A stretch of DNA of 64,000 nucleotides, taken from assembly GCF_003018115.1 (NCBI RefSeq), contig NZ_CP027457.1; one strand, written 5' to 3'. Position 1 is the stretch's first letter; each line of letters opens with the position of its first letter. Positions 15,551 through 18,500 of the stretch are shown piece by piece. Source of the stretch: Escherichia coli (GTDB lineage: Bacteria; Pseudomonadota; Gammaproteobacteria; Enterobacterales; Enterobacteriaceae). Made by a program: the position numbers.

Positions 15551-18500
15551 TAATGAGGGACGTATTTGTATTAGTCGCGACTTGATCTGACACATAGCCT
15601 TGAAAGGTTGAGAGTTACCGGTTTTGATATGAGTGTCGAATCCTTATCCAAAACAAGAGGTAACTCTCATGCTTCATACTGCCAATCCCGTCATCAAACA
15701 CAAAGCCGGTTTGCTCAATCTGGCTGAAGAACTCAGCAACGTATCAAAAGCTTGTAAAATCATGGGCGTTTCGCGTGATACGTTTTATCGTTACCGCGAA
15801 CTGGTCGCTGAAGGCGGTGTGGATGCGCAGATTAATCGTAGTCGCCGCGCTCCTAACCTTAAGAACCGTACCGATGAGGCAACTGAACAGGCTGTTGTTG
15901 ATTACGCCGTCGCTTTCCCGACACATGGTCAGCACCGGGCCAGCAACGAGCTGCGTAAACAGGAGGTTTTTATCTCCGACAGTGGTGTCCGTTCTGTCTG
16001 GTTACTCCATAACCTTGAGAATCTCAAAAGACGATACTGAACAAATTTTATCAGGTGACGTTCCGTAAAAAGTTGTATGGAGTTCTCGATGCAGTCGGCG
16101 CGACTATCAGTACCCCCGCTGAACCCTGGACTATCGGGCCGCCGTACTGGGGCATGTCACCCTGGCGTGCCGCTGGTTTTCCGCTAATGGTTTATTTCCT
16201 CTTTCTTTCCCAGCAAGAATTTATTTTAATCCGGAAGGATTATTTATTTTCAGATAGGGACTCACATTAAACACGTAACATTTTAATTAATGCATGGCTG
16301 AATATGTATTACACAATGTCAGATATCGTAAAAGACCAGTGCAATTCTATGTAAACTCTCTGACTGTTCATTTTATTTGTTGTTTCAGGGTCGGAACTCA
16401 CCCTCAATAAACAACTGAATACGAGTAGATATTCATCGTCTGAGCTATATGGCTTTACACAATAGCCGACATGTCTTTTCTCAGTCAGGAATTTTACTTT
16501 TCCTCACTACGAAGTTGACGACTTCGATATGGGATAGACTCTTAATTCAAGCAATTACTCTGCACAAGCATCAGGCAATCCAGCTCCAATATTTGTTATA
16601 AAATAATGCGTAACATTAATTTCACCAACAAAAAAAAGGTTTACGCTATCCCCTTGCCCTGGTATTTTACCATATTTACACCACACTTTTTTTGTATCTG
16701 GATCATTCTCTGATACGATTTTCGCCACTTGTTCCCTGGCCCTCACTGTCAATGTTTTCTTAAACCTACCCCCATCATCATTTGTTAGGGAAAAATAAGA
16801 AAAAAAATAATCATCTTCTACATTTGTGTATATTGATATATCCACCGCTACGTGCGGAAAAAAATCTGGGAGCCATGTAAAAACTCCATCATTTTCTGGT
16901 ATTGCCATATAGTTTATGTAATGTTTACTTACAAGAGATTCATCTTTGTATAAATAAAGATAAGTAATTACGCATAAAACAACAATGATTATAATAGCAA
17001 AAATAAATATTATCATCTTTGATAGATTACTTGAGATAGCCAGCATCTTGTAAAGCCTTTATCGTTTTTTTATGCTCTGGATTAATATAATCACTACATC
17101 TATCTGAGCAATCTGTTGTTGATGGACATGTCAACCCATGGTCATTTACAGCCAAGTCTTTTTTATTATCTTCAATCATTTCAGAATGGGATAGCTTTAC
17201 TTTTCTGCCGTACATACCGAACAGATTTAACCCGTAATCTCTAATCTCTTTTTCATAACCCAGCCCTTTCGCCGATCGGCTAACACCAGCGTCATTTAAT
17301 TTAGACACTCGACAAAATGCCATACAATGGAAAAATTGATCAGTCCCACCTAAATTTAATCTCTTCATATCTTCATAAGTATCAGATAATATATCCCATG
17401 CTCTTTGATGGTTTAGTTGATCTTTTCTTCTTATTAGCGCTACATCTGCGGGACTTAACCCTAATGGATCAATACCATTCACCGGATTCAGCGGATACGC
17501 ATACAGACTCCATCCCCCCTCCAGCCCTATCGGGTCCTGAGTGATATACCGCCCCTGCAACGGATCGTAGTACCGGTTCCGGTTGTAGTACAGCCCCGAC
17601 TCCGTATCATACTGCTGCCCCGGCAGCCGGTACGGCTGGTGCAGGTGATGCGGGTTCTCCTCATTAAGCTGGTTGCCCCATTCATCATATTCCGCGCTCC
17701 ACGCCGTATTGCCGTCTTCACTGATAAGCGCCAGCGGCAGGCCCCGGTGGTCACAGTGATAAAGATGTATTTTTCGCTCAGGCAAATAAACCGGCTCTAT
17801 CTGTGCCGCCAGCCGCTCCACCGTCAGCCCGCACTGCGCAAGCCACTGGCGGCTTTCACTGCTCACGCAGTTTGCCCGGATTTCCCCCTCCAGCCTGTCC
17901 AGCAGCCCCACCAGTTCAGCCGGGAACACCACACCGTGACCGTCCTCACTCCCTTCCTGCTGTAACTTCTCCACCAGGCTTCGCCGCTGCGCTTTATCCA
18001 GTTCGCCGTTCTCTGTCTCGATGCGGATGAGCGGCGCGAAGCTCCCCGGCTGGTATACCGTCTGGATACGCGTGGTATCGGTCTGTACCGTCGTCAGCCA
18101 GTCGCCGTCCCATCCGTACCACGTCACCTCCGGTTTACGCGACAGCGACATCCATCCCGTCAGGTCACTCTCGCGACGCCACACCCGTTTCCCCGTCCGG
18201 CGGCCCAGCGGGTCGTAGAGGTAGCGGCTCTCGACCAGTGGCTCCTCATGCTGTATCCGCGTGTAAAACACCAGCCGGTGCTGGCTGTCGTAGTGGTAGT
18301 GGTGGGTCCGCTCGTCGTCCGTCCGTATCACACCCGTCGGGATGCGGTCCGTCTTCTCCGTCAGCCTGCCGTATTCATCGTGGCGGTAGACATAGTGCGC
18401 ATCCTCCGCGATGCGGTTATCCGGCCACACTGTGAGTGTACTGTCCGGGTGCAGCTCCGGGTCCGGCAGCCGGTTGCCCGCCGGGTCCGTGGCATACGGG

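What the first reader, a model, noticed from the sequence alone, without database searches (positions are those of the whole stretch)
15605..16040. IS481-like transposase fragment next to an 11-bp inverted repeat
The 135-aa ORF has only the HTH/N-terminal part of an IS481-type transposase and no DDE domain, so it is probably a decayed mobile element between selU and the Rhs element. Its start is embedded in a hairpin (tgagagttacc ... ggtaactctca) that could be a relic terminal structure or a regulatory stem.
Basis: partly seen in the sequence, partly recalled or inferred. Interest (0 to 1): 0.3.

Follow-up and report, generated by a model that had tools for sequence, protein, structure and literature searches.

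The report
Decayed IS481 relic (ylbG) with leader hairpin
This is the known E. coli pseudogene ylbG, the dead left half of an IS481-family insertion sequence beside selU. Its 11-bp inverted repeat is the base of that element's conserved stem-loop, which covers the transposase ribosome-binding site, so the finding is ordinary.

Summary

- **Identity.** Window 15567-16093 is the E. coli ylbG pseudogene. It is the remnant of a ~1.2-kb IS481-family insertion sequence.
- **What survives.** The 26-bp left terminal repeat, the 5' leader and the first ~120 codons (HTH domains).
- **What is lost.** A 472-bp deletion removed the DDE core. The last ~205 bp, including the right terminal repeat, are replaced by a relic rhs 5' end.
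- **Decay.** Among six E. coli alleles the ORF has 7 nonsynonymous and 1 synonymous change, plus a frameshift in strain 55989.
- **The inverted repeat.** The 11-bp repeat (15609-15619 / 15659-15669) is not a terminal structure. It is the base of a ~61-nt stem-loop inside the element. This stem-loop is conserved in 54 distinct full-length relatives, with 8 of 17 pairs showing compensatory changes. Its 3' arm covers the Shine-Dalgarno sequence and the A of the ATG.
- **Rfam link.** The same hairpin, read on the opposite strand, is helix 1 of Rfam RF02349 (psRNA2). That family turns out to be the antisense of a Burkholderia relative's left end.
- **Likely role.** I infer an IS10/IS200-like control of transposase translation, by hairpin sequestration and possibly an outward antisense RNA. 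In this window it is a non-functional leftover.

Interest is low.

The parts
15567..15592 (+). Left terminal inverted repeat (IRL) of the IS481-family element, TGTATTAGTCGCGACTTGATCTGACA. The element's left end is at 15567.
   Evidence: Flanks of dozens of independent copies diverge exactly at TGTATTAG. It matches the right repeat of full-length copies at 21 of 26 positions, by my own comparison of the sequences. It occurs once in the window, with no second copy within 3 mismatches on either strand. Homology with island-free E. coli ends at 15566.
15600..15628 (+). Conserved TTGAAA (15600-15605), 17-nt spacer, TTTGAT (15623-15628). This is a candidate weak transposase promoter (pIN) lying inside the hairpin. 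Inferred only.
   Evidence: The same arrangement is present in 49 of 54 distinct leaders. The promoter scan did not call it, because the -10 hexamer lacks A at position 2.
15609..15669 (+). Leader stem-loop. The outer 11-bp stem is 15609-15619 / 15659-15669. The inner stem is GTTTTG (15621-15626) / CAAAAC (15649-15654). The apical loop is GTGTCGAAT. The 3' arm covers the second half of the Shine-Dalgarno sequence (GAGG, 15657-15660), the spacer and the A of the ATG.
   Evidence: fold -25.7 kcal/mol, z -3.58; 95.3% of cells paired, 8 of 17 pairs with changes on both sides, 0 of 500 shuffles reaching this, slid controls 28-48% paired. On the minus strand it matches helix 1 of Rfam RF02349.
15669..16040 (+). 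ylbG ORF: 123 codons plus a TGA stop at 16038-16040. It is the N-terminal HTH part of the transposase (residues 1 to ~120 of 346), followed by a few frameshifted codons (RRY) and the stop.
   Evidence: Pfam HTH_29 and NCBIfam IS481 N-terminal match. Protein alignment with full-length transposases shows 84% identity to L002. PGAP annotates it as a ylbG pseudogene in K-12.
16025..16033 (+). Junction of the internal 472-bp deletion that removed the DDE/rve core. It lies within the imperfect direct repeat CAAAAAACG / CATAAGACG of the parent element.
   Evidence: The two blastn segments against full-length copies overlap here. L010 position 1065 and position 1537 both align to window 16033, so 472 bp are missing and the frame shifts.
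16031..16093 (+). Out-of-frame remnant of the transposase C-terminal region (..TILNKFYQVTFRKKLYGVLDA). It is 94% identical to L002 3931-3999.
16092..16188 (-). Relic 5' end of an rhs gene ([26 protein letters not shown].., with ATG mutated to ATT). It replaces the last ~205 bp of the IS, including the right terminal repeat.
   Evidence: Translation. 78% DNA identity to the rhsD 5' end at window 21133-21229. PGAP calls it a partial hypothetical protein.

Best explanation
**What it is.** Window 15567-16093 is the immobile remnant of a ~1.2-kb IS481-family insertion sequence. Intact members of the group have 26-bp TGT...ACA terminal repeats, a 7-bp target duplication and a single 346-aa HTH+DDE transposase.

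**How it got here.**
- The element inserted 13 bp downstream of the selU (mnmH/ybbB) stop codon, at the edge of the rhsD island.
- It then lost 472 bp of its catalytic core by deletion between short imperfect direct repeats.
- It also lost its last ~205 bp at a junction with an rhs 5' fragment.
- What remains is the left terminal repeat, the leader and a 123-codon HTH-only ORF (ylbG). The ORF is drifting neutrally.

**What the inverted repeat is.** The 11-bp repeat is the base of the element's own ~61-nt leader stem-loop. It pairs the Shine-Dalgarno/AUG region with an anti-SD segment 40 nt upstream.

**Inferred mechanism in active copies.**
- Transcripts entering from outside, or from the terminal repeat, contain both arms. 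They fold, and this occludes ribosome binding.
- A transcript starting inside the loop would lack the 5' arm and would be translatable. The conserved TTGAAA-N17-TTTGAT would place that start near 15635.
- The same hairpin on the opposite strand probably forms the body of an outward antisense RNA starting at ~15666. This would be analogous to RNA-OUT of IS10 or to Pout of IS481.

**In this window** the hairpin is a leftover. At most it dampens translation of ylbG from selU read-through RNA.

**Shown versus inferred.** Shown: the identity of the relic, its boundaries, the deletions, the neutral drift, and the structural conservation with covariation. Inferred: the promoter positions, the SD-sequestration function and the antisense RNA.
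For: **Identity**
- 99.6% identical to K-12 ylbG, which is annotated as a partial HTH pseudogene.
- HTH_29 at 2.4e-20.
- NF033577 matches the N-terminal part only.
- A full-length relative, L002, scores 279 bits against a cutoff of 224 and has rve/rve_3 domains.

**Boundaries and deletions:**

**Family anatomy** (about 1194-1215 bp, 7-bp duplications).

**Insertion at the core/island border:**

**Neutral decay:** 7 nonsynonymous to 1 synonymous changes, a frameshift in strain 55989, and G99E at a family-invariant Gly in this window's allele.

**Hairpin**
- Folding.
- Present in all relatives.
- Covariation.
- The B. glumae copy keeps the stem through three double changes.
- An RNA starting at ~15635 folds at only -4.5 kcal/mol, against -25.7 for the full leader. 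Across the family the mean unpaired probability of SD..AUG is 0.31 for the full leader and 0.58 for the short RNA.

**Antisense link**
- RF02349 matches the minus strand.
- The match reaches 144.6 bits on the Burkholderia copy.

**Precedents**
- IS200 has an SD-sequestering stem-loop plus the antisense RNA art200, and IS10 has RNA-IN/RNA-OUT (PMC4513863).
- IS481 of B. pertussis has Pin and an outward Pout (PMC6161684).
Against: - No sigma-70-like promoter was called on either strand in 15400-16600. The proposed -10 (TTTGAT) lacks the key A at position 2.
- No transcription start data were available.
- G-U versus A-C counts do not show which strand's RNA is under selection.
- RNAalifold on the MAFFT alignment recovered only 6 pairs of the outer stem.
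- Even the short RNA keeps a small local AGAG/CUCU hairpin, so the predicted gain in SD accessibility is moderate.
- I found no paper describing this leader for IS481-family elements.
Confidence: 0.8

Rival explanations
1. The conserved hairpin matters mainly on the opposite strand. An outward promoter near the tnp start would make an antisense sRNA (psRNA2-like, analogous to RNA-OUT). The hairpin would be its stabilising stem, and its loop would pair with the 5' end of the tnp mRNA. In the window this RNA would run antisense into the selU 3' end. This is not exclusive of the best explanation.
For: - Rfam RF02349 matches the minus strand from 15666 outward through the left terminal repeat (32 bits, E 9e-6). 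Relatives score 38-47 bits and the Burkholderia copy 144.6 bits, above the gathering score.
- The Rfam model's first helix is this hairpin.
- A TATGAA hexamer on the minus strand (15678-15673) sits 6 nt upstream of 15666 (read from the sequence).
- The apical loop is nearly invariant.
- IS481 of B. pertussis has an experimentally mapped outward Pout whose transcripts cross the left terminal repeat (PMC6161684).
Against: - The window and all enterobacterial or marine relatives score below the Rfam gathering score of 65 bits.
- No promoter was called on the minus strand, and I saw no good -35.
- I could not find the experimental origin of psRNA2.
- Wobble-pair counts are ambiguous.
Confidence: 0.35
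2. ylbG is a domesticated HTH protein. It could be a regulator, or a truncated-transposase inhibitor that binds the terminal repeats of incoming relatives. On this reading it is not a dead fragment.
For: - The 123-codon ORF is intact in most genomes and keeps a strong HTH_29 match, an SD and its leader.
- The relic is present in about half of complete E. coli genomes (2747 of 5426).
- Some papers label it a 'DNA-binding transcriptional regulator'.
Against: - Six alleles show 7 nonsynonymous and 1 synonymous change. These include D37E in the invariant SRDTFYRY motif and G99E at an invariant Gly.
- Strain 55989 has a frameshift.
- Substitution density in the ORF equals that of the flanking non-coding DNA.
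- PGAP annotates it as a pseudogene.
- The adjacent ybbD-ylbG intergenic region is used as a chromosomal integration site.
- Fragments of both ends of this IS occur elsewhere, so there is no bias toward N-terminal fragments.
Confidence: 0.04
3. The inverted repeat is a DNA-level feature: a relic terminal or sub-terminal transposase-binding repeat, or a cruciform. It would not be an RNA structure.
For: - It lies 43 bp inside the left end.
- Covariation that preserves pairing is equally compatible with a DNA hairpin.
- Strand-specific wobble evidence is lacking.
Against: - The true terminal repeats are identified separately, and the hairpin arms do not resemble them.
- Binding sites conserve sequence, whereas here the arms change together.
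- The 3' arm is locked to the SD/ATG position in nearly all relatives.
- DDE (IS3/IS481-type) transposition has no known requirement for single-strand hairpins (established knowledge).
Confidence: 0.06

Closest known systems
E. coli K-12 ylbG (b0502) pseudogene, between selU/mnmH and the rhsD element
   Same: Same locus and same sequence: 99.6% over 1007 bp, with collinearity from allA to 17704. Same truncations.
   Different: Only point differences. This window's allele has G99E, one synonymous change and a few non-coding substitutions. By overall identity the window is closest to O157:H7-type genomes.
Full-length IS481-family elements of the TGTATTAG... subgroup, for example the copy in E. 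coli ECNB21-M121 (transposase WP_114007566.1) or the E. albertii NBRC 107761 copy (L028)
   Same: The left terminal repeat, leader hairpin, SD/ATG and first ~120 codons are 85-95% identical in DNA.
   Different: The relic lacks 472 bp of the DDE core, the last ~205 bp and the right terminal repeat, so it cannot transpose. Its left part is closest to L028 (95%), but its 69-bp right piece is closest to L002 (94% versus 81%), so the relic is a mosaic.
Rfam RF02349 psRNA2 ('Proteobacterial sRNA')
   Same: The model's first helix is this hairpin read on the opposite strand, followed by the complement of the left terminal repeat.
   Different: The window scores 32.1 bits against a gathering score of 65. 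The family seems to be built on a Burkholderia variant and includes ~87 nt outside the IS. Rfam does not present it as an IS leader.
IS10 (pIN / pOUT, RNA-OUT, fold-back inhibition) and IS200 (5'UTR stem-loop plus art200)
   Same: A hairpin near the left end occludes the transposase SD, and there is a possible overlapping antisense RNA whose stem is the same hairpin. The IS10 and IS200 mechanisms are described in PMC4513863.
   Different: These are unrelated transposase families (IS4, IS200/IS605). Nothing here has been tested experimentally, and the promoters are only inferred.
IS481 of Bordetella pertussis (type member), with Pin and outward Pout
   Same: Same IS family (NF033577). Its outward promoter near the tnp start gives transcripts that cross the left terminal repeat (PMC6161684).
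   Different: It is a different subgroup. I did not compare its leader sequence or test for an equivalent hairpin.

Membership tests
IS481 family insertion sequence | Transposase matches the IS481 model (NCBIfam NF033577) better than the models of other IS families | tested here: met
   NF033577 gives E=4.1e-25, with IS3 next at 7e-07. The match covers only profile positions 2-112 of 284 and scores 88.9 bits, below the full-length cutoff of 224.
IS481 family insertion sequence | Complete DDE (rve) catalytic domain | tested here: not met
   The window ORFs have no rve match. A 472-bp deletion removed it. The full-length relative L002 has rve and rve_3 and scores 279 bits, above 224.
IS481 family insertion sequence | Terminal inverted repeats beginning 5'-TGT and ending ACA-3' | tested here: inconclusive
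   The left repeat is present at 15567-15592. The right repeat is absent, with only one match to the repeat in the whole window on both strands. Relatives have both.
IS481 family insertion sequence | Short direct target duplication flanking the element | tested here: inconclusive
   Relatives show 7-bp duplications. Here the right end is deleted, so only the left flank ACGTATT (15560-15566) can be seen.
Rfam RF02349 psRNA2 | Covariance-model score at or above the gathering score (65 bits) | tested here: not met
   Window 15495-15666 (-) scores 32.1 bits, E 9.2e-6. The B. glumae relative scores 144.6 bits.
SD-sequestering leader hairpin of an IS (IS10 fold-back / IS200 type) | A stem pairs the SD/start codon with an upstream segment and is maintained by compensatory changes | tested here: met
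   95.3% of cells paired, 8 of 17 pairs with double changes, 0 of 500 shuffles reaching this.
SD-sequestering leader hairpin of an IS (IS10 fold-back / IS200 type) | The native transposase promoter or start lies inside the hairpin, so only foreign read-through RNA folds it | tested here: inconclusive
   TTGAAA-N17-TTTGAT is conserved in 49 of 54 leaders, but the promoter scan did not call it. No transcription start data were available.
SD-sequestering leader hairpin of an IS (IS10 fold-back / IS200 type) | Demonstrated repression of translation (reporter fusions, toeprinting) | not testable with these tools
   Needs experiments.
Functional stand-alone HTH regulator | ORF maintained by purifying selection | tested here: not met
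   7 nonsynonymous to 1 synonymous changes, plus a frameshift allele, among 6 E. coli alleles. The sample is small.

The most novel reading that the evidence does not exclude
This widespread IS481 subgroup has more than 550 relatives, found in Enterobacterales, Vibrio, Shewanella, Acinetobacter, Moraxella, Arsenophonus and Burkholderia. It may carry an uncharacterised IS10-like two-layer translational control.
- A covarying leader hairpin would silence read-through transcripts.
- An outward antisense RNA, filed in Rfam as the 'sRNA' psRNA2, would use its conserved loop to pair with the 5' end of the transposase mRNA.

The E. coli K-12 ylbG relic would still carry this module. It could emit an antisense RNA into the 3' end of selU.
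Probability: 0.35. Interest if true: 0.3.

Novelty: already known. Interest (0 to 1): 0.13.

Why it matters
It matters little for biology at large. ylbG is an annotated pseudogene in the best-studied bacterium, and decayed IS fragments at island borders are routine.

Three small gains:
- The relic's exact anatomy is now defined: left end at 15567, a 472-bp core deletion at 16025-16033, and a junction with an rhs 5' relic at 16092/93. This marks the selU-side border of the rhsD island.
- The 'hairpin at the start codon' is shown to be a conserved, covarying leader structure of a large IS481 subgroup.
- Rfam family RF02349 (psRNA2) is shown to be the antisense of that IS leader and left terminal repeat. 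This should be flagged when psRNA2 hits are reported as host sRNAs.

Tried and rejected
- **RNAalifold** on the MAFFT alignment of 54 leaders recovered only 6 pairs, because of indels in the 3' spacer. I used explicit pair counting instead.
- **The promoter/terminator scan** found no sigma-70-like site on either strand. It found only one terminator-like hairpin, at 16151-16171 inside the rhs relic.
- **G-U versus A-C counting**, used to decide which strand's RNA is selected, was inconclusive (6 versus 9). Several of those cells are alignment-register artefacts.
- **Literature.**
  - I could not find the origin of psRNA2.
  - I found no paper on leader structure in the IS481 family.
  - ylbG appears in papers mainly as one flank of the ybbD-ylbG intergenic integration site, plus one variant-table entry that labels it a DNA-binding regulator.
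- **Terminal-repeat reading of the 11-bp repeat:** rejected, because the true terminal repeat lies at 15567-15592.
- **Chance:** rejected on conservation, not on the count in the window. One such repeat per window is expected.
- **Not done.** I did not run the large protein-homology searches or structure prediction. The 80 full-length relatives from the genome scan already answered the question.
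Full report
**1. What is in the sequence**

The window around the finding is the E. coli allA-allS-selU(mnmH/ybbB) region. The ORF at 15633..16040 (135 aa from a GTG) exists.

A 1007-bp query (15554-16560) matches 3358 of 5426 complete E. coli genomes, 2724 of them over at least 80% of its length. K-12 MG1655 matches at 99.6%. There PGAP annotates the ORF as 'ylbG, helix-turn-helix domain-containing protein; incomplete; missing C-terminus', starting at the position equal to window 15669.

The ORF matches Pfam HTH_29 (2.4e-20) and other HTH models but no rve domain. In NCBIfam its best hit is the IS481 transposase model NF033577 (4e-25). Only profile positions 2-112 of 284 are covered.

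The inverted repeat is exactly as described: TGAGAGTTACC at 15609-15619 and GGTAACTCTCA at 15659-15669, a perfect 11 bp that extends to 16 nt at 88%. The A of the homology-supported ATG (15669) is the last base of the 3' arm.

**2. The parent element and the relic's boundaries**

Lower-identity hits led to a full-length copy in E. coli ECNB21-M121 (L002). Its 346-aa transposase passes the IS481 model (279 bits against a cutoff of 224) and has HTH_29, rve and rve_3 domains.

A scan of one genome per species returned 558 relatives. The best 80 come from Enterobacterales, Vibrio, Shewanella, Pseudoalteromonas, Acinetobacter, Moraxella and Arsenophonus (14 copies), among others. Plasmids added Burkholderia and Agarilytica copies.

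In these copies the flanks diverge exactly at TGTATTAG on the left and at CTA(A/G/C)TACA on the right. The elements are ~1194-1215 bp long and are flanked by 7-bp direct repeats such as AGTCAGT, CATTACC and AATTAGC.

Measured against them, the window holds four pieces:
- **Left end.** The left terminal repeat starts at 15567, and continuous homology runs to ~16033 (85-95% DNA identity).
- **Core deletion.** A 472-bp deletion has its junction inside CAAAAGACG (16025-16033). The parent carries the imperfect direct repeats CAAAAAACG and CATAAGACG at the two sides. The deletion shifts the frame and creates the stop at 16038-16040.
- **C-terminal scrap.** A 63-bp out-of-frame piece of the C-terminal region (..FRKKLYG..) runs to 16093.
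- **Loss of the right end.** Homology stops abruptly at 16092/93. From there the minus strand encodes [26 protein letters not shown], a relic rhs 5' end with ATG mutated to ATT. It is 78% identical in DNA to the start of the neighbouring rhsD gene.

The right terminal repeat is absent from the whole window. The element cannot move, and a target duplication cannot be checked.

**3. Genomic context**

About half of E. coli genomes lack the relic. In STEC306, selU is followed by ~700 bp (a dinQ-like toxin gene and a terminator) and then ybbP. In U12A the same site holds Hcp/DUF2931 type VI secretion cargo.

Homology between the window and the island-free form ends at 15566, exactly at the IS end, and resumes at 21651. 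The relic therefore marks the selU-side border of the rhsD island.

**4. Is ylbG still a gene?**

I compared six orthologous alleles: this window, K-12, 55989, Ec-U14-1, EFF60 and 99COLEC.
- They differ by 8 substitutions in the ORF, 7 nonsynonymous and 1 synonymous.
- The nonsynonymous changes include D37E in the family-invariant SRDTFYRY motif.
- This window's own allele has G99E at a Gly that is invariant in the family.
- Strain 55989 has a 1-bp deletion that PGAP flags as a frameshift.
- Substitution density in the ORF (2.2%) equals that of the flanking non-coding DNA (1.7%).

This fits neutral decay, although the sample is small. In the papers I found, ylbG appears as one flank of the ybbD-ylbG intergenic integration site. 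One variant table labels it a DNA-binding regulator.

**5. The hairpin**

*Significance.* On its own the repeat is not remarkable. Shuffled windows contain on average 1.04 perfect 11-bp repeats with a loop of 60 nt or less, and the real window has 7.

*Folding.* The repeat folds as part of a longer stem-loop: outer 11 bp, inner GTTTTG/CAAAAC, and further pairs. The energy is -25.7 kcal/mol, z=-3.58.

*Conservation.* The stem-loop is present at the same place, 43-103 nt from the left end, in every full-length relative.

*Covariation.* I counted pairs on an alignment of 54 distinct leaders.
- 95.3% of cells form standard pairs.
- 8 of 17 pairs have changes on both sides (25 cells).
- 0 of 500 shuffles reach these values.
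- Sliding the 3' partner by 1-3 columns drops pairing to 28-48%.

*Examples of compensatory changes*:

| Copy | 5' arm | 3' arm |
|---|---|---|
| Burkholderia glumae | CGGGGTTAC | GTAACCCCG |
| Methylotenera | TGAGCGTTACC | GGTAACGCTCA |
| Acinetobacter | GAAAGTTACC | GGTAACTTTC |
| Vibrio (inner helix) | CTTTGATTA | TAATCAAAG |
| Moraxella (inner helix replaced) | CCATATAGG | CCTAATGG |

*Position relative to translation signals.* In nearly all copies the 3' arm begins in the GG of the Shine-Dalgarno sequence and ends at or 1-2 nt before the start codon. It is therefore a selected structure of the element's leader, not a terminal repeat. The true terminal repeat lies 42 bp upstream.

**6. How it probably works (inference)**

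*Candidate promoter.* A TTGAAA hexamer, a 17-nt spacer and TTTGAT are conserved in 49 of 54 leaders. The apical loop GGTGTCGAATC is nearly invariant. If this weak promoter-like pair is the transposase promoter, transcription would start at ~15635, in the loop.

*Consequence for folding.* The element's own mRNA would then lack the 5' arm. Its predicted fold is -4.5 kcal/mol, against -25.7 for longer RNAs. Across the family, the mean unpaired probability of SD..AUG is 0.58 for the short RNA and 0.31 for the full leader. Transcripts reading in from outside would fold and hide the ribosome-binding site. This is the logic established for IS10/IS50 fold-back inhibition (my knowledge) and for the IS200 5'UTR stem-loop (PMC4513863).

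*A possible antisense RNA.*
- Rfam RF02349 'psRNA2' matches the opposite strand from 15666 outward through the left terminal repeat. The score is 32 bits (E 9e-6), below the gathering score of 65.
- Relatives score 38-47 bits.
- The Burkholderia glumae copy scores 144.6 bits. The model starts 2 nt before the tnp start codon, and its first helix is this hairpin.
- psRNA2 is therefore the antisense of this IS subgroup's leader.
- IS481 of B. pertussis has a mapped outward promoter Pout near the tnp start, and its transcripts cross the left terminal repeat (PMC6161684).

An IS10-like IN/OUT pair with ~32 nt of overlap is therefore plausible. The antisense loop would pair with the 5' end of the sense mRNA.

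*Caveats.*
- No promoter was called on either strand.
- Wobble-pair counts do not identify the selected strand.
- I found no experimental paper on this.

*In this window.* selU's own terminator is gone, so read-through RNA would carry both arms. At most, the hairpin keeps the dead ORF poorly translated.

**7. Comparison and verdict**

The object is E. coli ylbG, a known annotated pseudogene. It belongs to the IS481 family by its HTH region, leader and left terminal repeat. It fails the features that define a functional element: the DDE domain, the right terminal repeat and a checkable target duplication.

The hairpin is a regulatory leader stem, not a terminal relic.

What is new is minor: the exact anatomy, the covariation evidence for the leader hairpin, and the recognition that Rfam psRNA2 is an IS leader read backwards. 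Interest is low (0.13) and novelty is 'already known'. The most novel reading still open is an uncharacterised IS10-like hairpin plus antisense control module in this IS481 subgroup (probability ~0.35, interest ~0.3).

Noticed in passing
window 16092-16188 (-): Relic 5' end of an rhs gene ([26 protein letters not shown], start ATG mutated to ATT). It is 78% identical to the rhsD start at 21133-21229 and is fused directly to the truncated IS at 16092/93.
   Followed up: yes
window 16555-21256 (-), compared with K-12 locus L001: K-12 is collinear with the window up to 17704. K-12 6126-7007 then aligns to window 17484-18365 at 89%. The window's 1409-aa Rhs therefore appears to carry the C-terminal tip that in K-12 is the orphan fragment (ylbH). 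The 163-aa ORF at 16555-17046 looks like an intact version of the gene that K-12 has split into two hypothetical proteins (ybbD). K-12's rhsD-CT/ybbC segment seems to be absent here.
   Followed up: partly
window 15556-21650; loci L089, L090: The selU-ybbP gap is a variable island site. STEC306 has ~700 bp with a dinQ-like type I toxin gene and a strong terminator. U12A has Hcp plus three DUF2931 genes (type VI secretion cargo). This window and K-12 have the rhsD island.
   Followed up: partly
L005 220-417 (-); window 15495-15666 (-): Rfam RF02349 psRNA2 ('Proteobacterial sRNA') is the antisense of the leader hairpin and left terminal repeat of an IS481-family element, scoring 144.6 bits on a B. 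glumae plasmid copy. Genome-wide psRNA2 hits are therefore likely to be IS copies.
   Followed up: yes
window 15567-16033 versus 16025-16093: The relic is a mosaic. Its left 467 bp are closest to the E. albertii copy L028 (95%). The 69-bp right piece is closest to L002 (94%) and only 81% identical to L028. Either the parent IS was a recombinant or the two pieces come from different copies.
   Followed up: no
window 16151-16171 (+): The only terminator-like hairpin in 15400-16600 (GGCATGTCACCCTGGCGTGCC followed by GCTGGTTTTC) lies inside the rhs relic. It could end selU-ylbG read-through transcripts.
   Followed up: no
L052 701-2115: The copy in a Chromatiales MAG has a transposase match spread over 1415 bp instead of 1038, and a different sequence upstream of the apparent start. 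This suggests a ~377-bp insertion in or near the 5' end.
   Followed up: no
window 2576-2605, 10134-10182, 28808-28835, 50727-50788, 52579-52637, 55456-55485: Six other perfect inverted repeats of 11 bp or more with short loops, against about one expected by chance per window.
   Followed up: no
plasmid collection: A ~186-bp right-end fragment of this IS (query 1019-1204, 96% identity) recurs on many E. coli, Klebsiella and Citrobacter plasmids, often at nearly the same plasmid coordinate (~4650-4840). This suggests a fixed relic in a common plasmid backbone.
   Followed up: no
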